Source: Candidatus Thorarchaeota archaeon (GTDB lineage Archaea > Asgardarchaeota > Thorarchaeia > Thorarchaeales > Thorarchaeaceae). Taken from it: 20,051 bases of DNA. Position numbers and translations under genes: made by a program. The DNA is taken from contig RDOC01000012.1 of the NCBI GenBank assembly GCA_011364985.1, forward strand, positions 1 to 20,051. Direction: 5' to 3'. The notes under the pieces are model-generated. The model was given only the letters and a program-made list of their open reading frames with translations. It was not told the origin of the DNA and did no database searches. Shown piece by piece: positions 4,747-14,309 of the stretch (positions within the stretch are counted from its first letter, which is position 1; each line of letters opens with the position of its first letter).

Positions 4747-7371
4747 TCACGATTTCTGACTCTGCCGTGGTTTCACGAAGGCAAGATAAATCATAGCAAC
4801 CGCCACCACACCAATGACTACTGCAGCTCCAATGATGAGCGGAAGAGCGTCAGAAGGCGGCGCTGTCGAAGTTGTGGTTGTTGAAGTTGTTGTTACTGGA
4901 TTGTAGACGACAAGGCCCATTTCGCCCCATACAGTGTTATTGGCAGCATCATGGACTGTGACGCTAATGGAGTATTCCCTGTTCATGGACTTAGTGGTAT
5001 CCCACCAGACAGTGATTTGTACATATTCTCCAGGATCCGATGGAGGGCTAATCGGCTCGCTTACGGATGTTCCGCCATAATAGATCTCCACTAGACGGAC
5101 TCCGCTGCCTGAATCACTTACTGTGATATTGATTCCTATAACCCCTCCGACCTGACTGCCGCTTATCGCAGCCATTCCCTCTCCCCAGGTGAATGTTGGT
5201 TTGATTGTATCAACAGTAGTATAGTTCTCGTATACTCCCTCCTCAGGGATTCTTACTGTGTCGCCGGTCCCATCCACTGCAGTGACATAATACTCCACAA
5301 GGGCATCATAGGGTTGTCCCGGTATTGACCCATTATATGTGGTTCCTGATTCATGGAGCATAGGCTCTTGTTGCCATGCTCCTCCCTCAACTCTGTAATT
5401 GATGTAGAGTCCATCTAATGAGAAGTCATAGGCATCAGCCGTAACAGGTACGGGCTCAAATGCTTCGGGTGCTGTAGTCGGGCCTTGTATACTCTCTAGA
5501 ACTGGATACGTGTCATCGTAGACGTAGAACTCATCAAGAAGTAACGTAAGAAGTTCTCCAGGCATACTAACGACCATAAGTGATACACTGACAATTTCAA
5601 TTCCATCAGGATTGCCAAAGTAACTGGTATAATCTGTGACAAGATTGCGTTGAGCCCTTATCCACTCATGAGTAGTACCTGCCATAGGAAGGTCAATGTG
5701 CATTTCAGTGCTACTATTGCTTACCGGATTATTTCTAGCAAAGTAGTAGTATATTTTGTACCCATTGGCAAACTCGAAAAACATCGTGGCCCAAGTTCCA
5801 TCTTCCTGCAAATATGATTCAAGTCGCCATGTGATATCAAAGACAGTCTGGGTTTCGTTTCGCATTGTTATTGCTAATGGCTGGGTCAGATATGGGTCGT
5901 AATCCTCCCAGACTGTGATATTCGCTGCCTTGGTTCCATCATATGAAAAGTCTGTGACTAGAACTGTTTCATGATCATCATAGCCTCCACTTGGACTATT
6001 CCATCCCAAGATTCGTTCCCCAACTGCACCTTGGTCCTCATACCCCATATCATTGACACGTGCAGAAACCATCTCAAAGTCATCGACAAGGATCTCCATA
6101 CGTCCTCCCTTTTCTGAACTCATAGCATAAAGAGAAATCCTCTCTAGGCGAATCTCGTCTGTATTGAAGTAGGCTACAGCATCTGAACAGATACTCTGAT
6201 TGAAGAGAGTCCATCCTCCCGTGATATTGAATGCTGTTGGATGGATGACTAGGCGATAGGTTTCGTTCGTTTCTGGCATCCCTATACCACCATGGGCGAA
6301 GTAGTAGTAGATGTCAAAATCATCAGTTGTATTCGTGCACTCAATTGCGACATAGGCATAGGTGTCTATGCTTGCCTCTGTCCAATCAGCAATGTTGTAC
6401 CAGAATCTTAGTGTTCCGGAATTAAGGGGCGTTAGTCGCCCACAGACATCCTGCCATACGCCACATAGACTATCGTTCCCATTGGAATCGACCGTGAGAT
6501 TTAGACTCCAATCACCAGTGTGGGCAACTGCACTCTGAGAAACCTCTGCATGGTCACTGTCAGGCATCTTTATCCAATAGTAGGTACTCTCTAAATTGCC
6601 ATTCCGTTCCCAATCTCCGATGTGCACGTCCGCGCCATACTTGAGCCATACATCATCTATGAATCCTCGGATGTACTGATTGACTCTGCCTGTTGAGTGT
6701 ATCCAGAAATACAGAGTAGAAATCCTGATTGAAGATGTTGGTTCACCGAATTCCGGGAGGTCCTCATAGTCTGCCGTGATATTGCGGCTAAAGGAGTTCC
6801 ATGTCTGTGAGGGACCCCCAATCTTGTAGAAACCATTTGTACTGGAGTTTGACCCACCAGTTGTGCCATTCAAGAAGTAATAGATGTTTTTCCCATCAGT
6901 CAGCCGTATCCAGAGATAGAAGGTATCACCGTACAGACCGGGGTCATGGTTCTCATAAAGATACCAGCGGAATTCCAGAGTCGTATTGTCTATCTGTGTG
7001 TTTGGCAGTTGTGCCCAATACGTATTTGATCCAAGCCATTCATCTGTGGCACGAGCCTGCAGACCACCTGAATGGGACCCTTCACTTACAGGCCACGGGG
7101 CGCTAGCAAGCCAAGCATATCTCTCACGGGCTTGAAGGTTTGACATTGCAGCTGGCGAAAGCGGATTGCCCCACCGCTCAAAATCTCCATTCTCGAACCG
7201 ATTTCCTGTCCAGTTGACGGGATCAAGGTTCAGACTTGAAGTCTGTGTCATTGAATTCGAACCCATATGATTCAATATTCCTATTCTGCATTCTTGATTG
7301 CTACCAGTCATGAAAACTAGTGAGAGGATCAGTAGCACAGCAATCATAGTTCCAGCCTTGAATCTTAGCAC
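4747..7371 (-). CDS. Membrane-anchored cell-surface glycoprotein: signal peptide, 3 tandem CBM/galactose-binding-like repeats, 2 Ig-like domains, Thr-rich linker, C-terminal TM
   Basis: Hydrophobic N-terminus. Repeats begin NGDFE/NGNLE/NDMGYE and end FIDDV/LVDDF/LLDEF. Many N-x-S/T sequons. 'PVTTTSTTTTSTAPP' precedes the TM and a basic tail. GGAGGT RBS precedes the GTG start. Confidence 0.85.
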   Translation of the reverse strand: MLRFKAGTMIAVLLILSLVFMTGSNQECRIGILNHMGSNSMTQTSSLNLDPVNWTGNRFENGDFERWGNPLSPAAMSNLQARERYAWLASAPWPVSEGSHSGGLQARATDEWLGSNTYWAQLPNTQIDNTTLEFRWYLYENHDPGLYGDTFYLWIRLTDGKNIYYFLNGTTGGSNSSTNGFYKIGGPSQTWNSFSRNITADYEDLPEFGEPTSSIRISTLYFWIHSTGRVNQYIRGFIDDVWLKYGADVHIGDWERNGNLESTYYWIKMPDSDHAEVSQSAVAHTGDWSLNLTVDSNGNDSLCGVWQDVCGRLTPLNSGTLRFWYNIADWTEASIDTYAYVAIECTNTTDDFDIYYYFAHGGIGMPETNETYRLVIHPTAFNITGGWTLFNQSICSDAVAYFNTDEIRLERISLYAMSSEKGGRMEILVDDFEMVSARVNDMGYEDQGAVGERILGWNSPSGGYDDHETVLVTDFSYDGTKAANITVWEDYDPYLTQPLAITMRNETQTVFDITWRLESYLQEDGTWATMFFEFANGYKIYYYFARNNPVSNSSTEMHIDLPMAGTTHEWIRAQRNLVTDYTSYFGNPDGIEIVSVSLMVVSMPGELLTLLLDEFYVYDDTYPVLESIQGPTTAPEAFEPVPVTADAYDFSLDGLYINYRVEGGAWQQEPMLHESGTTYNGSIPGQPYDALVEYYVTAVDGTGDTVRIPEEGVYENYTTVDTIKPTFTWGEGMAAISGSQVGGVIGINITVSDSGSGVRLVEIYYGGTSVSEPISPPSDPGEYVQITVWWDTTKSMNREYSISVTVHDAANNTVWGEMGLVVYNPVTTTSTTTTSTAPPSDALPLIIGAAVVIGVVAVAMIYLAFVKPRQSQKS

Positions 7372-7844: not shown

Positions 7845-8030
7845 CTAGTATTGGCTCATAGATTCTCTACAATCCCTCACCTTGCGTATGTCGATTCTGC
7901 CCTGTCCAACATCCATGAACTGCCACGCACATCCGCACTTTGTACATTCAATTCTTCCTGTCTGGTTCTGGTAGGACGTTCTTATTGGATAGTACTTCCC
8001 GCAATGGCATAGAATCTCGGATTTCCCCAT
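7845..8030 (-). CDS. Small Cys-rich zinc-ribbon-like protein (61 aa)
   Basis: CHCG...CTKCGC knuckle pair. ATG at 8030 has GGATGA upstream; alternative ATG at 8045. Confidence 0.6.
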   Translation of the reverse strand: MGKSEILCHCGKYYPIRTSYQNQTGRIECTKCGCAWQFMDVGQGRIDIRKVRDCRESMSQY

Positions 8031-8212
8031 GGTATCATCCTTCATGATTGTGAGTCAAAACAGATATGGTAGTTCAAATATGTTTCGAGGCAATGCTCCT
8101 TTCGGTCGCTTTCGTGAATTTTAATTCGATAGTTTCTGATTGCATTATCCTGACCATAGTATTGTTGATACCATGGATGACGATAGCACCGCTAGATTGA
8201 TTTTGTTTCTTG

Positions 8213-8503
8213 TTACCATGACCTTCCAGGGCTGTCCATCTTCTCAATTGCCTTGAATACTCCGTCAATCTCCTTATTAGAAATAATCTCCCTAATGGCA
8301 TTAAGCTCATCAAGGTTCTGTATTATTACTCCTATCTTCTTAGTCGGATTTCCATGTTCATCAGTGGGGTTGATTTCAACAGCCAAGTAAGCTGGCTCAT
8401 CCCCTGATCTGGGTATCTTTCTGACGAACACTCCAGGTTCATCGGTTCTCATTCGTTCGAATTTTCTCCCATGCTTGAGCATATCTCTCAGCGATGCTTC
8501 CAT
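8213..8503 (-). CDS. Conserved archaeal hypothetical protein
   Basis: The pattern 'T..PGVFV.K.P......LAVEINP.DE.GNPTKK.G' resembles a small uncharacterised archaeal family as I recall it. TTTATC TATA-like element upstream. Confidence 0.7.
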   Translation of the reverse strand: MEASLRDMLKHGRKFERMRTDEPGVFVRKIPRSGDEPAYLAVEINPTDEHGNPTKKIGVIIQNLDELNAIREIISNKEIDGVFKAIEKMDSPGRSW

Positions 8504-8646: not shown

Positions 8647-9258
8647 CTAGTGGTCTAGGAATGTCATCACTCTTTCAAGGAGGTAGCATGGCGTCTTGCT
8701 CAAAGTCTTGCTAACATTGCCTTTCGAAGTCCTTGTGGCTTTTGCAATCTCTGAGATTCGTTTCTTCTCCCATATGTAGTAATAGCAATGATGTAACTGA
8801 ACAGTACTCATGCCGAGAAGTGATGTGTATAGGAGGACAGAACTAGTTACTGCCATTCTCTCATCATTTGGACTTGTCTCATCAATCCTAAATGCGGCAG
8901 ACCTATTCATGTACTTGGTCCTCTTTATTCCATCAAGCGCCTCTCTTGCATTCCAGAAGGCCTGTCCATCACACTCGTCTGCGTTCTCCTTCTGGATGAT
9001 AACATCCCCAGTTCCAAGCCCTACTCGAAACTCCACGTCTTCCATCAGAAGCCTATGAAAGAGAAACACAATCGGCTGCCAACTATTGACCAGAAGTTCA
9101 ATGCTGTCGCCTTGGGTCAGGGAGGGTGTAGCAATGCAATTCTCCTTGAAGCCTTCTATTGTTTCCTTTAGCAAGGCTCGTAGCTCTTTGTCCAATCTCC
9201 TTCGTTCATGAGCATCGACGTTTCTGGACGACACGATGTCAACAATAGCTGCAATCAC
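8647..9258 (-). CDS. satD: SatD-family protein: class III nucleotide-cyclase-like domain plus C-terminal HTH
   Basis: GTG at 9258 follows a GGTGAGG RBS. Motifs 'AIVDIVSSR', 'TQGDSIE', 'FRVGLGTG', 'DGQAFWNAREAL'; HTH 'ISEIAKATRTSKGNVSKTLSK'. Confidence 0.82.
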   Translation of the reverse strand: MIAAIVDIVSSRNVDAHERRRLDKELRALLKETIEGFKENCIATPSLTQGDSIELLVNSWQPIVFLFHRLLMEDVEFRVGLGTGDVIIQKENADECDGQAFWNAREALDGIKRTKYMNRSAAFRIDETSPNDERMAVTSSVLLYTSLLGMSTVQLHHCYYYIWEKKRISEIAKATRTSKGNVSKTLSKTPCYLLERVMTFLDH

Positions 9259-9265
9259 TGACGCC

Positions 9266-9757
9266 TCACCCTGCCAGTAGAAATCTGAAGACCCACCACG
9301 ACAAGGCAAGGGCCATGGTTATGCTCATCAGGGTCCCGAGAATGTACCAGTCGGCGCATGCACGGTCACTGGATTCCCTACTTGAGTAGCGGAAAATAGC
9401 CTTACCTGCAATGATGACCGAGAGAAAGCTGAGAATGGCTGCATACGACAACGCACTGTCAAAATAGGCTATCATAATGGCTAGGAAAATGAGACTTCGC
9501 TCTACATATCCGATCAAATATCCTCCATATTGCAGACCGCCGCATCTTGTTGCAATGCTTTCTTCAAGTCCTTTCCCCAGTTCTGTAAATGTCAGGTCGA
9601 TCACTAGGCTTGGCAAAGACAGCACCAAGAGGTATCCTGAGAAAATGATGGGCAACTCTACGTTCATCAGAGCTACTTGAAAGAGGACAATCAGACTCAG
9701 AAAAACAACACTCAGCAATGCAACAAGTGCACCGAGCCCTCGTTGAAGCATCTTCAT
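9266..9757 (-). CDS. Multi-pass membrane protein resembling the C-terminal half of DUF3307/SatE-like proteins
   Basis: ATG at 9757 follows GGTGG. About 4-5 TM segments with 'GGYLIGYVERSLIF', 'IAGKAIFRY' and 'ADWYILGTLMSI'. Stop is 7 nt before the satD start. Confidence 0.75.
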   Translation of the reverse strand: MKMLQRGLGALVALLSVVFLSLIVLFQVALMNVELPIIFSGYLLVLSLPSLVIDLTFTELGKGLEESIATRCGGLQYGGYLIGYVERSLIFLAIMIAYFDSALSYAAILSFLSVIIAGKAIFRYSSRESSDRACADWYILGTLMSITMALALSWWVFRFLLAG

Positions 9758-9800
9758 AGTGCCACCACACAAATGGTGATATCGCTACTCTCTCGCTAGA

Positions 9801-9806
9801 TTATAA
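9801..9806 (-). promoter_or_regulatory. Putative TATA box for the membrane protein-satD operon
   Basis: TTATAA, 44-49 nt upstream of ATG 9757, directly abutting the first operator-like box. Confidence 0.5.
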
Positions 9807-9883
9807 GTTTACCTATCTAATTAACAATACATTATGTTGACTTATAAAGTAAACAAAATAAGATGTTTACCGATATGGTTAGA
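9807..9883. promoter_or_regulatory. Three phased palindromic operator-like boxes GTTTAC-N7-GTAAAC with 29-bp period
   Basis: 9807 GTTTAC-ctatcta-ATTAAC; 9836 GTTGAC-ttataaa-GTAAAC; 9865 GTTTAC-cgatatg-GTTAGA. The 10-nt linkers are aatacattat and aaaataagat. Confidence 0.7.
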
Positions 9884-10024
9884 TAAAGAAATGATTGCAC
9901 TTGTCTCTCCTGTCTACAAACCGGAAGATAACAAGATTACTGAGAGCAGTAGGCATTTGAGGCAAGATGCTGTCATTCTTTGCTCTGACAAACAGGGATT
10001 GAAATAACATATGCTAAGACACCA

Positions 10025-10454
10025 TTGAAGGGCAAATCGACGAGAAATCTTGAGTCTCTAACAGGTCACTGGAAAGGAGAGAAAGCAGACGGTATGATCA
10101 AGGAATATTGGCCAGCTGAAATGCATTCCAACAAGGCAGGCGTCTTTCGCTGGATCAAGAATGACGATGTCTACATCTATGAAATCATTGCCATTGTTGA
10201 GCAATATGATGAGATTCACATGCTTCTTTGTCACTTCGATAGACTTCACAGCTTTGGAGAAGAAGGATGGTCCCTTGGACTTTGTTGTGACAGAGCTGTC
10301 AGAAACCGAAGTGGTCTTCATAGATATGACAAAACCAGGTGATGGATTTCTTAGATACAACGTGCGTAAGAAAGACATGCTTGAGTTCTTTTCCTATGAA
10401 CCAGAAGAATCTGTTCATTTCTTGCTCTTCTTCAAGAGAGTCCATGAGGACTGA
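10025..10454 (+). pseudogene. Frameshifted DUF6265-like (lipocalin-like beta-barrel) gene
   Basis: ORF 10025 (LTGHWKGE..IKEYW..GVFRWIK..YEIIAIVE..LLCHFD) continues naturally into the frame of ORF 10161 (DFTALEKKDGPLDF..). Restoring 2 nt at about 10241-10244 (AGAC to AGAGAC) gives HFDRDFTALEKKD. Confidence 0.7.
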
Positions 10455-10824: not shown

Positions 10825-11580
10825 TTGCTTGTGGATATGCCTGACACCCTACGTGAGATTGTTCTCACGCCTGCAGGAAAACAACCAATGAAGGAAGTAA
10901 TGTTCATCACTGATCCCGATTCTGGTTTGGCCTTTGACCATAAGGCACGTATCGCAATCCTCACTATTCTTGCGAGAGGAGTCCCTGATACTAGTACAAC
11001 GGTCGAATATGACCAAGCAACTGACGTTACAACTGAAACTCGCAGGAAGACCGTACGATATGCCCTCTCAGTCATCGAAATCATGAAGATGTCGAACGAG
11101 TATGAAGGTTTCAAGAAGCTGACTAGAAATCAAATATACCATCATCTACAAGTGATGATTGATAGCGGAGTCATAGTCAAGCACGGGACGGTTCAGAATG
11201 GAAATAGATTCACAGACTACTACAGACGAACTGCAAAGAACTTCGTCTTGACCTTAGAAACTCCTAGCTACGGAGCTGAATTCCTTAAGGATCATGAGTC
11301 CAAGCGTCTGGAAGGACTCCTCTCAATGTTTGCTTTCAAGCTGAATAGAAGTCAAAAGGAGAAGTTATTGGAGTTGAGAATCAAGACTCAGAAGCTTCAG
11401 GATAAATGGCGTCCTATGATTGCCAAACTGACCCAAGACGATGTAGCAGATCAAGAAGTCATATGCTTCTATCATTGGTTGGTTGACGTATACTCTCTGA
11501 CATGCCCGGAATATATTGAGTTGGGCAGGAATGTTGCAGCAATCCTATTCCCACATTCTCTGGAGGACCAGAAATGTTAG
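10825..11580 (+). CDS. ArsR-like winged-HTH transcriptional regulator with helical C-terminal domain
   Basis: 'AFDHKARIAILTIL', 'LTRNQIYHHLQVMIDSGVI', wing 'TDYYRRTAKNF'. Start ambiguous (TTG 10825, GTG 10831, ATG 10837). Stop overlaps the tldD start. Confidence 0.8.
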   Translation: MLVDMPDTLREIVLTPAGKQPMKEVMFITDPDSGLAFDHKARIAILTILARGVPDTSTTVEYDQATDVTTETRRKTVRYALSVIEIMKMSNEYEGFKKLTRNQIYHHLQVMIDSGVIVKHGTVQNGNRFTDYYRRTAKNFVLTLETPSYGAEFLKDHESKRLEGLLSMFAFKLNRSQKEKLLELRIKTQKLQDKWRPMIAKLTQDDVADQEVICFYHWLVDVYSLTCPEYIELGRNVAAILFPHSLEDQKC

Positions 11581-12959
11581 AGGCTGGGAATCTAGCAGTC
11601 GAAAGTGCTCGTGATATTGGCGCAAGCTTTGCTGACTGTCGTGTTGAACAAACGCAGGTTTTTCAAATTGAAATAGTCGATGGAGTCCCTAAGAACTGTC
11701 AAATCGCGAAGATCAAAGGTGCAGGTATCCGAGCTCTCATAGATGGTTCGTGGGGATTTTGCCCTACCTCTGATTTGAATCCAGATAGTATTCGAAATGT
11801 GGCAGAATCAGCTGTGGACCTTGCAATATCTAACAAGGATCGAGTTAGTGATATATTCGATGTAGAGGTCGGGTCTTGGAAAGACAGTGCGAAGACCGTG
11901 ACCAAGATTCCGTTACAGAGTGTTTCAATAGAGGAGAAGATGTCTCTTCTCAAAGAGCTGGACAAGGAAGCACATAGTTTTGATTCGAGGATATCCAGTT
12001 CAAAAATAAGATATGAAGAAGCAATAACTGAACTTCATATAGTGAATTCTCTTGGTACAGATATCCATCTTGAATTATCGATACCATGGCTTGTGGTCAT
12101 ACTGACTGCATGTGACGCTTCTAGTAGTCAGCGAGGTGTCGCTAGGCTGGGAGGAAGTGGGGGATTTGAGCAGATAGACTACGAGAGTGCCCGAGTTACT
12201 TTGAATGAATCAGCAACATTGGCTTTGGACAAGCTAGATTCCATTTCCCCTAAGGGTGGAACCTACGACATAATCACTGATCCCGATTTGACTGGAGTTC
12301 TTGCGCATGAGGCCTTTGGACATGCATGCGAAGCAGATAATTGGGTATCTGATGTCACAATATTCAGAGGCAACTTGGGCAAGAAGCTAGGGTCTGAGGT
12401 CATCAACATCAATGACGATCCGACCATCCCAGGATTAAGAGGGTCATTTGATTATGATTGGGAAGGAACAAAGACAAGGCCCCGTGAGCTGATTAAGGAA
12501 GGAGTACTAAATGAACTTCTCCATACTCTTGAAACGTCATCACGTATGAATTTAGAGTGCACTGGTGCAGCTCGTTGTCAATCGTTCATGTTTGAACCAA
12601 TTCCTAGAATGGGGAACACTTTCTTCAAACCCGGTGATTGGGACTTTGAGGAACTAGTAGAGGATACAAGATCAGGTATGATTCTTTGTGGGATTGGGGG
12701 AGGATATACTATGTCAAGCAAAGGGGTGTATGCTTTCATGTCGACTCATGGTTATCTGATAGAGGATGGTGAGCGCGGCCACATGCTGAGGGGTACAACG
12801 ATTTCAGGGGAACATCTCACTACCCTAAGCAAAATTGATGCACTATGCGATGATTTTCGCATGAACTCTGGAACTTGTGGAAAGGGTGAACAACATGTTC
12901 CTGATATGTCTGGAGGACCGCATATGCGTATATGCAAAATGGTGGTTGGGGGAAATTAG
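11574..12959 (+). CDS. tldD: TldD metalloprotease subunit (TldD/PmbA family)
   Basis: Catalytic 'LAHEAFGHACEAD' (HExxGH), 'DDPT', 'PIPRMGNT', C-terminal metal-ligand 'GTCGKGEQ'. Confidence 0.95.
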   Translation: MLEAGNLAVESARDIGASFADCRVEQTQVFQIEIVDGVPKNCQIAKIKGAGIRALIDGSWGFCPTSDLNPDSIRNVAESAVDLAISNKDRVSDIFDVEVGSWKDSAKTVTKIPLQSVSIEEKMSLLKELDKEAHSFDSRISSSKIRYEEAITELHIVNSLGTDIHLELSIPWLVVILTACDASSSQRGVARLGGSGGFEQIDYESARVTLNESATLALDKLDSISPKGGTYDIITDPDLTGVLAHEAFGHACEADNWVSDVTIFRGNLGKKLGSEVININDDPTIPGLRGSFDYDWEGTKTRPRELIKEGVLNELLHTLETSSRMNLECTGAARCQSFMFEPIPRMGNTFFKPGDWDFEELVEDTRSGMILCGIGGGYTMSSKGVYAFMSTHGYLIEDGERGHMLRGTTISGEHLTTLSKIDALCDDFRMNSGTCGKGEQHVPDMSGGPHMRICKMVVGGN

Positions 12960-14309
12960 ATGAAAGAAACTCTCTTTGAGATTGGTGAAAAACTCCTCAG
13001 CAGGTCCTATCAAAACAACATCGATCAGGCAGAGATCTACCTTGAATCGGTAGAACGCAAGAATCTACGAGTCGTAAATGGTTCGGTGGGAACTGCAAAA
13101 CAGATTGTCAATCAAGGAGTTGGAATACGAACTGCAATCAAAAAACAACTTGGTTTCTCCTACGCTACGACCCTTTCACTTGAGGATTGCATAGATATTC
13201 TGGAGAAATCTGCCACGCTTGCGCGCGTGAGTGATGAAACTCCTACCTTTGTCGAGTTTCCTGGGAAATCCTCTTCCTATCCTCACGTATCCGGACTCTA
13301 TGACAGAGCAATCGCGGAACTCACATCAGAGGAATTGTCTGAACTCCTCTATCGTGCAATTGAAGAAAACCAGAGTTGTTTTGCGAATCAGGAAACAATC
13401 ATATACGGAAGCCTAGAGACTGCTACCAAAACCATCGCAATTCTAAATACAAATGGAATCCTAGCGCATAATGAAACCACTAGAATTATGCTCAGTATAG
13501 ACTCAACTCTGAGGAAATTCGGAGAACAGCTGGATAGCTCTGAAACCCAATATGGTACTAGACTCACAGATATTGATCCAGAATGGATTGGCAGGAAAGC
13601 AGCTGAAAATACATTTAGAATGGCAGGTCCTAAGCCAGTGGAGAATAAGCAAATGCCCATTATCCTCTCACCTTTGACACTACGTTCAGTATTCCGAGAT
13701 GGGCTAACTCCTGCCATCAATGCCGAGAATTATGCTGTTGGTCAATCATATTTGAATGGACTACTAGGCTCACAAATCGCGTCAGAGCAACTTGTGATAG
13801 TTGATGATGGTACTCTTGAAGGCGGCTACAACTCTTCTCCATTTGATGGTGAGGGAACTCCATCAAGAAGAACCGAAGTGCTAACAGGAGGTGTTCTGAA
13901 GAACCTTCTTCATAGCTCCTACACAGCAAGTGCATCTGATTCTACAAGCACAGGGAATGCTGTTCGTGAGTCATATTCGACTCCTCCGGCTGTTGGATGT
14001 ACGAACCTTAGAGTTCAACCAAGAAGAGGAACGCTAGACGATCTATTCTCGGAGATTGATGAGGGGATTTATTGCCATTTCGCATTGGACTATCCAGATC
14101 AATTAACGGGAGATATTAGCGCATTGATCTTGGAGGGATTCCTTGTCATAGACGGTGAGATTCAGCATCCTCTAAAGAACACGTTTTTCGTAGTCAATAT
14201 GTGTGACCTATTGAAACGAGTTGTGAGCATCGGTAATGATACACGCATGTTAGAGGGAATTGTAAGCCCGAGCATTTTGATTGATTCCGTAGATATTGTT
14301 TCCGAATAG
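12960..14309 (+). CDS. pmbA: TldE/PmbA non-catalytic partner subunit
   Basis: 'GVGIRT', 'SPFDGEGTP', 'STGNAVR', 'SPSILID'. Lacks HExxH. Starts immediately after the tldD stop. Confidence 0.92.
   Translation: MKETLFEIGEKLLSRSYQNNIDQAEIYLESVERKNLRVVNGSVGTAKQIVNQGVGIRTAIKKQLGFSYATTLSLEDCIDILEKSATLARVSDETPTFVEFPGKSSSYPHVSGLYDRAIAELTSEELSELLYRAIEENQSCFANQETIIYGSLETATKTIAILNTNGILAHNETTRIMLSIDSTLRKFGEQLDSSETQYGTRLTDIDPEWIGRKAAENTFRMAGPKPVENKQMPIILSPLTLRSVFRDGLTPAINAENYAVGQSYLNGLLGSQIASEQLVIVDDGTLEGGYNSSPFDGEGTPSRRTEVLTGGVLKNLLHSSYTASASDSTSTGNAVRESYSTPPAVGCTNLRVQPRRGTLDDLFSEIDEGIYCHFALDYPDQLTGDISALILEGFLVIDGEIQHPLKNTFFVVNMCDLLKRVVSIGNDTRMLEGIVSPSILIDSVDIVSE

What the first reader, a model, noticed from the sequence alone, without database searches (positions are those of the whole stretch)
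8647..9757. Candidate nucleotide-signalling or toxin-antitoxin module: membrane protein + SatD cyclase-fold/HTH protein in an archaeon
Seen: a tightly coupled two-gene operon (7-nt gap, RBS overlapping the upstream stop). The SatD protein keeps equivalents of class III nucleotide-cyclase motifs: first metal Asp in DIVSS, second in GD, RVGLGTG strand and G-x-AFxNAR helix. It is fused to an HTH. The partner carries the conserved intramembrane polar motifs IGxxER, K-x-IFR and Y-x-x-GT. From recall: SatD and DUF3307/SatE genes co-occur in bacteria without a defined biochemical function, usually with satD first and a longer partner having an N-terminal His/Asp metal motif. Here the order is reversed and that N-terminal half is absent. 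Inference: a minimal nucleotide-synthesising or -sensing protein paired with a membrane effector, architecturally like cyclase/mCpol + TM-effector anti-viral systems, and self-regulated through the HTH. It sits in an accessory patch between pseudogenes.
Basis: partly seen in the sequence, partly recalled or inferred. Interest (0 to 1): 0.75.

Follow-up and report, generated by a model that had tools for sequence, protein, structure and literature searches.

The report
Minimal SatD regulator-membrane cassette, Asgard form
A Thorarchaeota genome carries an intact, apparently self-repressing two-gene unit: a DNA-binding protein built on a nucleotide-cyclase fold, plus a small membrane protein. 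It is a stripped-down, gene-order-reversed version of a widespread cassette of unknown function, and nothing found here ties it to virus defence.

Summary
Window 8647-9757 (minus strand) carries two translationally coupled genes: a 163-aa five-helix membrane protein, then a 203-aa SatD protein (Pfam PF16264, 56.9 bits).

SatD's N-terminal half models confidently as a class III cyclase/GGDEF/Cas10-type palm domain. The two canonical acidic positions, D7 and D51, are invariant in 76 loci from archaea and bacteria. Its C-terminal half is an HTH.

The membrane partner has no Pfam match. A profile search shows it is homologous only to the C-terminal four-helix module of bacterial SatE/DUF3307 proteins, so the His/Asp DUF3307 half is absent. 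Membrane-gene-first order is confined to Thor-type archaeal loci.

The proximal one abuts the TATA-like box. The array is unique in the 1.7-Mb assembly and conserved in relatives.

The pair is accessory: 12 of 23 high-quality genomes in the family, the two genes found in the same genomes bar one. Its neighbours are transporters and regulators, not defence genes.

Best reading: a self-repressed, nucleotide-binding regulator working with an obligate membrane partner. Defence and toxin-antitoxin roles remain unsupported. This scan has noted the cassette family over 100 times on other DNA; this is a derived minimal variant.

The parts
9266..9757 (-). Membrane partner gene (163 aa, five predicted TM helices). 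It is homologous to the C-terminal four-helix module of SatE/DUF3307 proteins and has no DUF3307 half.
   Evidence: ORF and translation. No Pfam, NCBIfam or PADLOC hit. 79 Asgard homologues. Profile search finds 5212 representatives in short and long classes. 16 of 20 long forms carry DUF3307, in the N-terminal half where inspected. AF2 model has pLDDT 83.2 and five helices.
8647..9258 (-). SatD gene (203 aa, GTG start): palm/cyclase-like domain (about residues 1-130) plus C-terminal HTH (about 131-203).
   Evidence: Pfam SatD at 56.9 bits. AF2 pLDDT 93.5. Foldseek top hits are Ma1120 adenylyl cyclase and GTP cyclohydrolase III. VIA Z is 12.1 for 2qv6, about 10 for cyclases and about 9 for GGDEF. 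Weak HTH hits to MJ223, YlxM and Lrs14.
9264..9270 (-). Shine-Dalgarno-like GGTGAGG for SatD. It overlaps the partner's TGA stop (9266-9268), giving translational coupling.
   Evidence: Read from the sequence. Gaps of -8 to +7 nt in most relatives.
9807..9825 (.). Operator O3 (promoter-proximal palindrome, GTTAATT-AGATA-GGTAAAC on the minus strand).
   Evidence: The proximal site ends GGTAAAC-TTATAA in many relatives.
9836..9854 (.). Operator O2, 29 bp from O3.
9865..9883 (.). Operator O1 (distal), 29 bp from O2.
9800..9806 (-). TATA-like box (TTATAAT) directly 3' of O3. The GTAAAC half-site sits where a BRE would be.
   Evidence: Sequence. The promoter assignment is inferred from archaeal promoter architecture and was not measured.
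9762..9766 (-). Shine-Dalgarno-like GGTGG, 4 nt before the partner's ATG.
   Evidence: Sequence.

Best explanation
This is an intact member of the SatD-SatE cassette family in a derived, minimal Thorarchaeota-type form.

Shown:
- Two coupled genes.
- SatD combines a palm/cyclase-fold domain, with both canonical acidic positions retained, and an HTH.
- The partner is the universally retained four-helix C-module of SatE plus one extra N-terminal helix. It has no DUF3307 His/Asp half.
- Three palindromes in exact 29-bp phase sit at the operon's promoter.

Inferred:
- SatD dimers occupy the three palindromes. Because the proximal site covers the BRE/TATA region, they repress the operon.
- The palm domain binds an NTP-Mg complex (catalysis is possible but unproven). 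That occupancy sets SatD's oligomeric state or DNA affinity.
- The membrane partner communicates with SatD through its conserved charged cluster (E86/R87, K119/R123, R132/D136). I place this cluster on the cytoplasmic side by the positive-inside rule. The pair would then couple a membrane state to transcription, much as a co-transcribed regulator and membrane anti-regulator do.

The only target detectable in this assembly is the cassette's own promoter, so the cassette's physiological output is most likely the membrane protein itself.
For: - Identity and fold.
- Conserved D7, S11, G50-D51, G98 and R105 in 76 archaeal and bacterial loci.
- Partner homologous to the C-terminal half of DUF3307 proteins.
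- Pair adjacent in 76 of 80 loci. At least three of the four exceptions are cut by a locus or contig end.
- Co-occurrence in the own family: 28 SatD against 27 partner among 81 genomes, the same genomes bar one.
- In-frame SatD+DUF3307+C-module fusions in a Chloroflexia MAG and a Fibrobacteraceae MAG (L094, L096).
- The three operator sites are the only matches in the window.
- They are also the only sites within 100 bp of each other in the 1.7-Mb assembly.
- 29-bp spacing recurs in nearly all 34 Thor-type loci.
- Lag 29 is the best autocorrelation lag upstream of satD in 21 of 50 satD-first loci, against 1 of 42 control regions.
- The array follows the promoter, not satD, when gene order is reversed.
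Against: - No experiment exists on any member. DNA binding by SatD, nucleotide binding and the SatD-partner contact are all inferred.
- Residue-level superposition of D7 and D51 on cyclase metal ligands could not be done. Only their topological positions are known: the end of strand 1 and the strand 2-3 hairpin in the model.
- A repressor whose only target is its own operon gives no obvious benefit, which is what one also sees in addiction or defence modules.
- The HTH assignment rests on weak sequence hits (E 0.02-0.1).
- Membrane topology is derived by hand from the positive-inside rule.
Confidence: 0.55

Rival explanations
1. Nucleotide-signalling abortive-infection system. SatD synthesises a cyclic or linear nucleotide signal, constitutively or on infection. 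That signal gates the membrane partner, which then depolarises or permeabilises the membrane, as in Panoptes, Pycsar or CBASS systems with TM effectors.
For: - Palm fold shared with cyclases, GGDEF, Cas10 (Cmr2 Z 9.3) and mCpol (9mnr Z 8.0).
- Invariant Asp pair.
- Two-gene enzyme plus membrane-protein layout, patchy distribution and no stable synteny.
- Earlier scan notes report relatives inside restriction and BREX loci (untested here).
Against: - The partner has no soluble sensor domain. OptE of Panoptes binds its signal through a soluble domain (PMC12657218).
- No PADLOC hit.
- No defence genes among 150 neighbours in 24 Thor-type loci.
- No viral-contig relatives.
- SatD carries an HTH and an operator array, features of a transcription factor and not reported for OptS in the Panoptes abstract.
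- The best structural match is a non-cyclase palm enzyme.
- SatD-partner fusions make a diffusible messenger unnecessary.
Confidence: 0.15
2. Toxin-antitoxin-like addiction module. The small membrane protein is toxic. SatD neutralises it and represses the operon as a type II antitoxin would.
For: - Compact autoregulated two-gene operon.
- Accessory and patchy.
- Context differs even within the genus.
- One relative (G266) has a partner gene broken by stop codons while SatD is intact.
Against: - The partner's conserved charged cluster and its universal retention across bacteria and archaea point to a specific function rather than generic membrane damage.
- Single-polypeptide fusions of SatD and partner exist.
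- Rare on plasmids (5 of 72,556 records) and not found in viral contigs.
- An invariant metal-nucleotide site in an antitoxin would be unexplained.
Confidence: 0.15
3. Metabolic or enzyme pair. SatD is an NTP-processing enzyme, for example GTP cyclohydrolase III-like chemistry, with an HTH for end-product feedback. The partner is a membrane enzyme or transporter acting on the product.
For: - The top structural match is GTP cyclohydrolase III MJ0145 (Z 12.1, rmsd 3.1 over 114 residues), more than 1 Z above the next hit.
- Long-form partners carry a His/Asp motif suggestive of a metal hydrolase.
Against: - The Thor-type partner lacks that His/Asp half entirely, yet the pair is maintained.
- Distribution is patchy, about half of high-quality genomes in one family.
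- No metabolic genes are consistently linked.
- Identity to MJ0145 is only 18%.
Confidence: 0.1

Closest known systems
SatD / SatE (DUF3307) cassette, named after satD-satE of the Streptococcus mutans sat operon (Pfam PF16264 and PF11750); function unknown
   Same: - SatD passes the Pfam cut-off.
- Same palm+HTH architecture.
- Obligate adjacency to a homologous membrane protein.
- Upstream array of palindromes in 29-bp phase.
   Different: - Gene order is reversed (membrane gene first).
- The partner lacks the DUF3307 His/Asp half and gains one N-terminal helix.
- The hairpin motif is GD-S-I-E instead of GD-E-F-Q.
Class III adenylyl/guanylyl cyclases (e.g. Ma1120 4wp9, Rv1264 1y10, Rv1625c 7yzi) and GGDEF diguanylate cyclases
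   Same: - Same beta-alpha-beta-beta-alpha-beta palm core (Z 9-10.4).
- Acidic residues at the end of strand 1 and in the strand 2-3 hairpin.
- A Gly-rich strand 4.
- An Arg-bearing helix.
   Different: - No Pfam Guanylate_cyc or GGDEF hit at E<=1.
- 12-18% identity.
- Fused to an HTH.
- Substrate-specifying and Asn transition-state residues are not recognisable.
- Activity untested.
GTP cyclohydrolase III MJ0145 (PDB 2qv6)
   Same: Best structural match (Z 12.1, 18% identity). An archaeal palm enzyme that binds GTP and metal ions.
   Different: MJ0145 is a two-domain enzyme without an HTH, with no membrane partner and no operator array.
Panoptes optSE (mCpol + TM effector; PMC12657218, PMC12657230)
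   Same: A two-gene operon pairing a minimal palm-domain protein with a membrane protein. The palm fold is related (9mnr Z 8.0).
   Different: - Per the paper's abstract, OptE binds the signal through a soluble domain; the partner here has none.
- The abstract describes OptS only as a minimal polymerase (mCpol) domain and mentions no HTH or operator array.
- No PADLOC match and no defence context here.

Membership tests
SatD (PF16264) | Match to the Pfam model above its gathering score | tested here: met
   E 3e-15, 56.9 bits against a cut-off of 29, residues 2-132. One copy in the own assembly.
SatD (PF16264) | N-terminal palm/cyclase-like domain followed by a C-terminal HTH | tested here: met
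   AF2 model at pLDDT 93.5. Fold hits. Weak HTH hits at residues 139-200.
SatD-SatE cassette | Adjacent, co-oriented SatE-type membrane gene | tested here: met
   7-nt gap. Partner homologous to SatD-adjacent membrane proteins in other Asgard lineages and in bacteria.
SatD-SatE cassette | Upstream array of palindromic sites in about 29-bp phase | tested here: met
   Sites at 9807, 9836 and 9865. Family-wide lag-29 signal in 21 of 50 loci against 1 of 42 controls.
DUF3307 (PF11750) | Match to the Pfam model | tested here: not met
   No hit at E<=1 for the partner. No DUF3307 match in the own assembly, which is 74% complete.
DUF3307 (PF11750) | N-terminal His/Asp motif block (H-x3-D ... H ... 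DQ-x2-H) | tested here: not met
   Absent from the 163-aa protein. It aligns only to the region after that block in long forms.
Class III nucleotidyl cyclase | Cyclase-homology-domain fold | tested here: met
   Foldseek E 8e-4, probability 1.0 to Ma1120. VIA Z 10.4-9.0 to several cyclases over about 125 residues.
Class III nucleotidyl cyclase | Two metal-binding Asp (strand 1 and strand 2-3 hairpin) | tested here: inconclusive
   D7 and D51 occupy those topological positions in the model and are invariant. No residue-level superposition was possible.
Class III nucleotidyl cyclase | Sequence-family membership (Pfam Guanylate_cyc) and substrate or transition-state residues | tested here: not met
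   No such Pfam hit at E<=1. Arg105 is conserved, but the Asn position varies (R, H, A or K in other lineages).
Class III nucleotidyl cyclase | Cyclic-nucleotide synthesis | not testable with these tools
   Needs purified protein and LC-MS.
Panoptes / mCpol systems | mCpol-type synthase | tested here: inconclusive
   9mnr at Z 8.0, rank 48, within the range of general palm-fold matches. No PADLOC hit.
Panoptes / mCpol systems | Membrane effector with a soluble signal-binding domain | tested here: not met
   The partner model is five helices with loops of 17 residues or fewer. OptE's soluble domain is described in PMC12657218.
Type II toxin-antitoxin | Toxicity of one product neutralised by the other | not testable with these tools
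   Only indirect hints: autoregulation, patchiness, and one broken partner gene in G266.

The most novel reading that the evidence does not exclude
SatD-SatE would be a new, bacteria-to-Asgard class of signal-transduction unit. In it, an NTP-binding or nucleotide-synthesising palm domain fused to an HTH is controlled at the membrane by a four-helix partner. The Thor-type cassette would define its irreducible core: palm-HTH, four-helix module and a 29-bp-phased operator array. The DUF3307 His/Asp half would be an optional accessory.
Probability: 0.25. Interest if true: 0.8.

Novelty: new variant of a known kind. Interest (0 to 1): 0.55.

Why it matters
The SatD-SatE pair is common. The partner profile alone finds over 5,000 sequence clusters, in both bacteria and archaea. 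Yet the held literature has almost nothing on it: one incidental mention of DUF3307.

The Thorarchaeota form is a natural deletion experiment. It keeps SatD, the operator array and only the C-terminal four-helix module of the partner. This shows which parts are indispensable, and that the conserved His/Asp centre of DUF3307 is not.

It also gives a small, well-defined set of reagents for a first biochemical test: an 80-bp operator fragment, a 203-aa soluble protein with two obvious point mutants, and a 163-aa membrane protein. That test would ask whether a cyclase-fold domain can act as the ligand module of a transcription factor.

Tried and rejected
- Direct Pfam, NCBIfam and PADLOC scans of the partner found nothing.
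- Foldseek and VIA-align searches with the partner model gave only generic helical-bundle matches (best E 0.36; Z at most 8.3 at rmsd about 5 A). No fold assignment was made.
- The ESM Atlas search of the partner gave no hit at 0.9 or above and no named cluster.
- A PDB sequence-profile search with SatD found only weak HTH hits and no cyclase.
- Literature searches for SatD, SatE, DUF3307 and PF16264 returned satellite-DNA and unrelated acronyms. There was one incidental DUF3307 mention.
- The listing of cluster members gave no organism names for short-form partners.
Context was taken from the genome search, the fetch from genomes and the search for related loci instead.
- Defence-island idea: PADLOC hits among 150 neighbours were mad3/mad8/AriA/AbiLi and Csa3/CasR. 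Their member counts match the ABC-transporter ATPases and winged-helix regulators seen in Pfam, so I read them as generic.
- The 96-aa gene downstream (8213-8503) was considered as a third cassette gene and rejected. It is conserved but lies on other contigs or 30 kb away from SatD in relatives.
- Viral carriage: no relative in IMG/VR with Thor-type patterns.
- Plasmid carriage: 5 hits in 72,556 records with a bacterial SatD query.

Full report
**What is there**

On the minus strand the window holds two genes.
- The first runs 9757 to 9266 and encodes a 163-aa protein.
- The second runs 9258 (GTG) to 8647 and encodes a 203-aa protein.
- They are 7 nt apart. GGTGAGG (9270-9264) overlaps the first gene's TGA and lies 5 nt before the GTG.
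- Homologues of the second protein begin at the same residue with ATG.

The organism is a Thorarchaeota-type Asgard archaeon. All close homologues of both proteins come from Thor-, Hermod- or Promethearchaeota MAGs. The window is the start of contig 3 of a 1.7-Mb, 74%-complete assembly.

**SatD**

The 203-aa protein matches Pfam SatD above the curated cut-off (56.9 against 29 bits). It is the only copy in the assembly.

An AlphaFold2 model built on 31 sequences is confident (pLDDT 93.5, pTM 0.90). It shows a beta-alpha-beta-beta-alpha-beta core (residues 1 to about 125) followed by five helices.

Fold searches place the core firmly in the palm superfamily:
- Foldseek puts class III adenylyl cyclases (Ma1120, Rv1900c, Rv1264) and GTP cyclohydrolase III at the top (E about 8e-4, probability 1.0).
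- The Foldseek-independent search gives 2qv6 (GTP cyclohydrolase III) at Z 12.1.
- It gives cyclases at Z 9-10.4, GGDEF domains at about 9, Cmr2/Cas10 at 9.3 and mCpol (9mnr) at 8.0.

The best match, however, is a palm enzyme that does not make cyclic nucleotides.

Key residues are conserved. In 76 SatD genes from archaea and bacteria fetched here:
- D7 and S11 are identical in all 70 that align.
- G50-D51 are identical in 76 of 76, G98 in 75 of 75 and R105 in 72 of 75.
- D7 sits at the end of strand 1 and G50-D51 in the strand 2-3 hairpin. From established knowledge, class III cyclases and GGDEF domains hold their metal ligands at these positions.
- I could not superpose residues, so this last step is inference.
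- A lineage-specific change is visible. Thor-type proteins read GD-S-I-E where nearly all others read GD-E-F-Q, so the second carboxylate has moved two positions along strand 3.

The C-terminal helices give weak matches to winged-helix and sigma-70 region-4-like HTH proteins (MJ223, YlxM, Lrs14, GerE; ECF sigma model E 0.05).

**The partner**

The 163-aa protein has no Pfam, NCBIfam or PADLOC hit. It has 79 Asgard homologues at 49-71% identity.

It is homologous to the 130-140-aa membrane proteins encoded just after satD in other Asgard lineages (27% identity, E 3e-7). Invariant residues across both groups are G79, G83, E86, R87, K119, R123, R132, G141, T142 and S145.

A profile of these sequences, searched against 1.84 billion representatives, found 5212 relatives. 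They fall into two length classes: 116-187 aa, and 206-330 aa with the match in the C-terminal half. Of 20 long forms, 16 hit DUF3307. In the member inspected the match covers the N-terminal half, which carries an H-x3-D ... H ... DQ-x2-H block.

So Pfam DUF3307 models only the front half of SatE-type proteins. The window's protein corresponds to the unmodelled back half plus one extra N-terminal helix.

The model (pLDDT 83) has five long helices. No structural search gave a specific match. By the positive-inside rule (my own reading of the sequence) the N-terminus is cytoplasmic, and all invariant charged residues lie at the cytoplasmic ends of helices 3-5.

**Gene order and distribution**

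In 80 loci recovered from one genome per species, SatD is adjacent in 76. At least three of the four exceptions are cut by a locus or contig end.
- Membrane-gene-first order with a short partner occurs in 21 of 22 loci; the 22nd is cut before SatD.
- Those 22 loci are Thor, Hermod, Prometh and Njord MAGs, plus one MAG labelled Thermoproteota and one Nitrososphaerota.
- Methanobacterium, Bathyarchaeia and Zixibacteria have short partners but satD first.
- Nearly all Bacillota, Chloroflexota and other bacterial loci have satD first and a DUF3307-bearing partner.
- Two loci (L094 Chloroflexia, L096 Fibrobacteraceae) encode SatD, DUF3307 and the C-module in one open frame. This argues for physical association.

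Within the window's own taxonomic family, sensitive profiles find SatD in 28 of 81 genomes and the partner in 27. These are the same genomes bar one, where I suspect the contig ends before the partner. Among genomes at least 90% complete the figure is 12 of 23; in the own genus it is 5 of 16.

None of the window's other genes recurs within 10 kb of the pair in 12 relatives, including three of the same genus. Some relatives share an ABC/FtsX transporter, an ArsR-type regulator and large beta-helix surface proteins.

- Upstream of the partner gene lie three sites fitting GTTWACC-N5-GGTWAAC, at 9807-9825, 9836-9854 and 9865-9883. They are exactly 29 bp apart.
- They are the only matches in the window (chance mean 1.0, scattered).
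- In the whole assembly they are the only such sites within 100 bp of one another, out of 58 sites in total.
- The proximal site is followed at once by TTATAAT. Its GTAAAC half-site occupies the BRE position, so occupancy should block TBP/TFB (inference).
- The same motif at 29-bp steps is present in nearly all of the 34 Thor-type loci examined.
- In satD-first loci of bacteria and other archaea the site sequences differ, but the phase is kept. Lag 29 is the best autocorrelation lag in 21 of 50 upstream regions, lag 28 in 6 and lag 58 in 3, against lag 29 in 1 of 42 control regions.
- The array thus stays with the promoter whichever gene comes first.
- SatD's HTH is the only DNA-binding domain that travels with it.

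**Defence or toxin-antitoxin?**

- Neither protein hits PADLOC.
- Of 150 flanking ORFs from 24 Thor-type loci, PADLOC hits were limited to models whose member counts match the generic ABC ATPases and winged-helix regulators seen in Pfam.
- Pfam tallies of those same ORFs are led by ABC_tran, FtsX, PadR and transporters.
- No relative was found in IMG/VR. Only five plasmid records matched a bacterial SatD.
- The partner lacks the soluble ligand-binding domain that the Panoptes effector has (PMC12657218).
- One relative has a partner gene broken by stop codons beside an intact SatD (G266). This fits a toxin-antitoxin reading but is a single case.
- Fusion proteins and the specific conserved charged cluster argue against a generic membrane toxin.

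**Conclusion**

The structural and comparative parts of the interpretation are supported, and the antiviral/TA function is not.

The most likely mechanism is a self-repressed regulator whose palm domain binds an NTP-metal complex and which works with an obligate membrane partner. This mechanism is inferred.

The cassette family is already recorded in Pfam and was seen more than 100 times by this scan. This instance is a derived minimal variant, and it shows the DUF3307 half to be dispensable.

Noticed in passing
window 10001-10442 (+): The gene divergent from the cassette is frameshifted. An intact 152-aa relative (L108:1498-1956:-) aligns to 10001-10243 in frame +2 and to 10245-10442 in frame +3. 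This is either a pseudogene or an assembly error.
   Followed up: yes
window 8213-8503 (-): A 96-aa gene lies 143 nt downstream of SatD. It is intact and conserved in 17 of 60 family genomes, but there it sits on other contigs or about 30 kb from SatD. It is not part of the cassette and has no Pfam hit.
   Followed up: yes
window 7845-8045 (-): A 66-aa ORF with CxC...CxxC cysteines weakly matches the first 55 positions of the 177-position DUF7351 model (E 0.0035). It may be a truncated remnant.
   Followed up: partly
window 4747-7371 (-): An 874-aa protein with an N-terminal hydrophobic segment, many N-x-S/T sites, a Thr/Ser-rich linker and a C-terminal membrane anchor; it looks like a surface protein. 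Other Thor loci have large NosD/beta-helix or arylsulfotransferase-like surface proteins just downstream of SatD (L015, L021, L022, L023).
   Followed up: partly
window 10825-14309 (+): A PadR/HTH_20-like regulator gene overlaps the first gene of a TldD/PmbA metallopeptidase pair (11574-12959, 12960-14309) by 7 nt, which suggests one operon.
   Followed up: no
L094:2396-4258 (+) and L096:2492-4219 (+): Single open frames of 620 and 575 aa contain SatD, DUF3307 and the C-module in that order, in a Chloroflexia MAG and a Fibrobacteraceae MAG. These are natural fusions of the two cassette proteins.
   Followed up: partly
SatD residues 52 and 54 (window about 9097-9105): All 21 Thor-type SatDs read GD-S-I-E. 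51 of 55 others have E at the position after GD and 54 of 55 have Q two residues on (GD-E-F-Q). The second carboxylate of the hairpin has shifted two residues along the strand.
   Followed up: partly
G266:C12:6476-6939 and L018 (G103:C8): In G266 the partner gene is split by TAG and TAA stops next to an intact SatD. In G103 the partner carries an insertion of about 60 aa between helices 2 and 3 (ORF of about 230 aa).
   Followed up: no
L057 (Bathyarchaeia MAG), upstream of satD: Two sites, TTAACCTCTATAGGTTAA and TGAACCTCTGAGGGTTAA, lie 29 bp apart. Their half-sites resemble the Thor-type GTTAACC/GGTTAAC, whereas bacterial cassettes use unrelated half-sites at the same 29-bp phase.
   Followed up: partly
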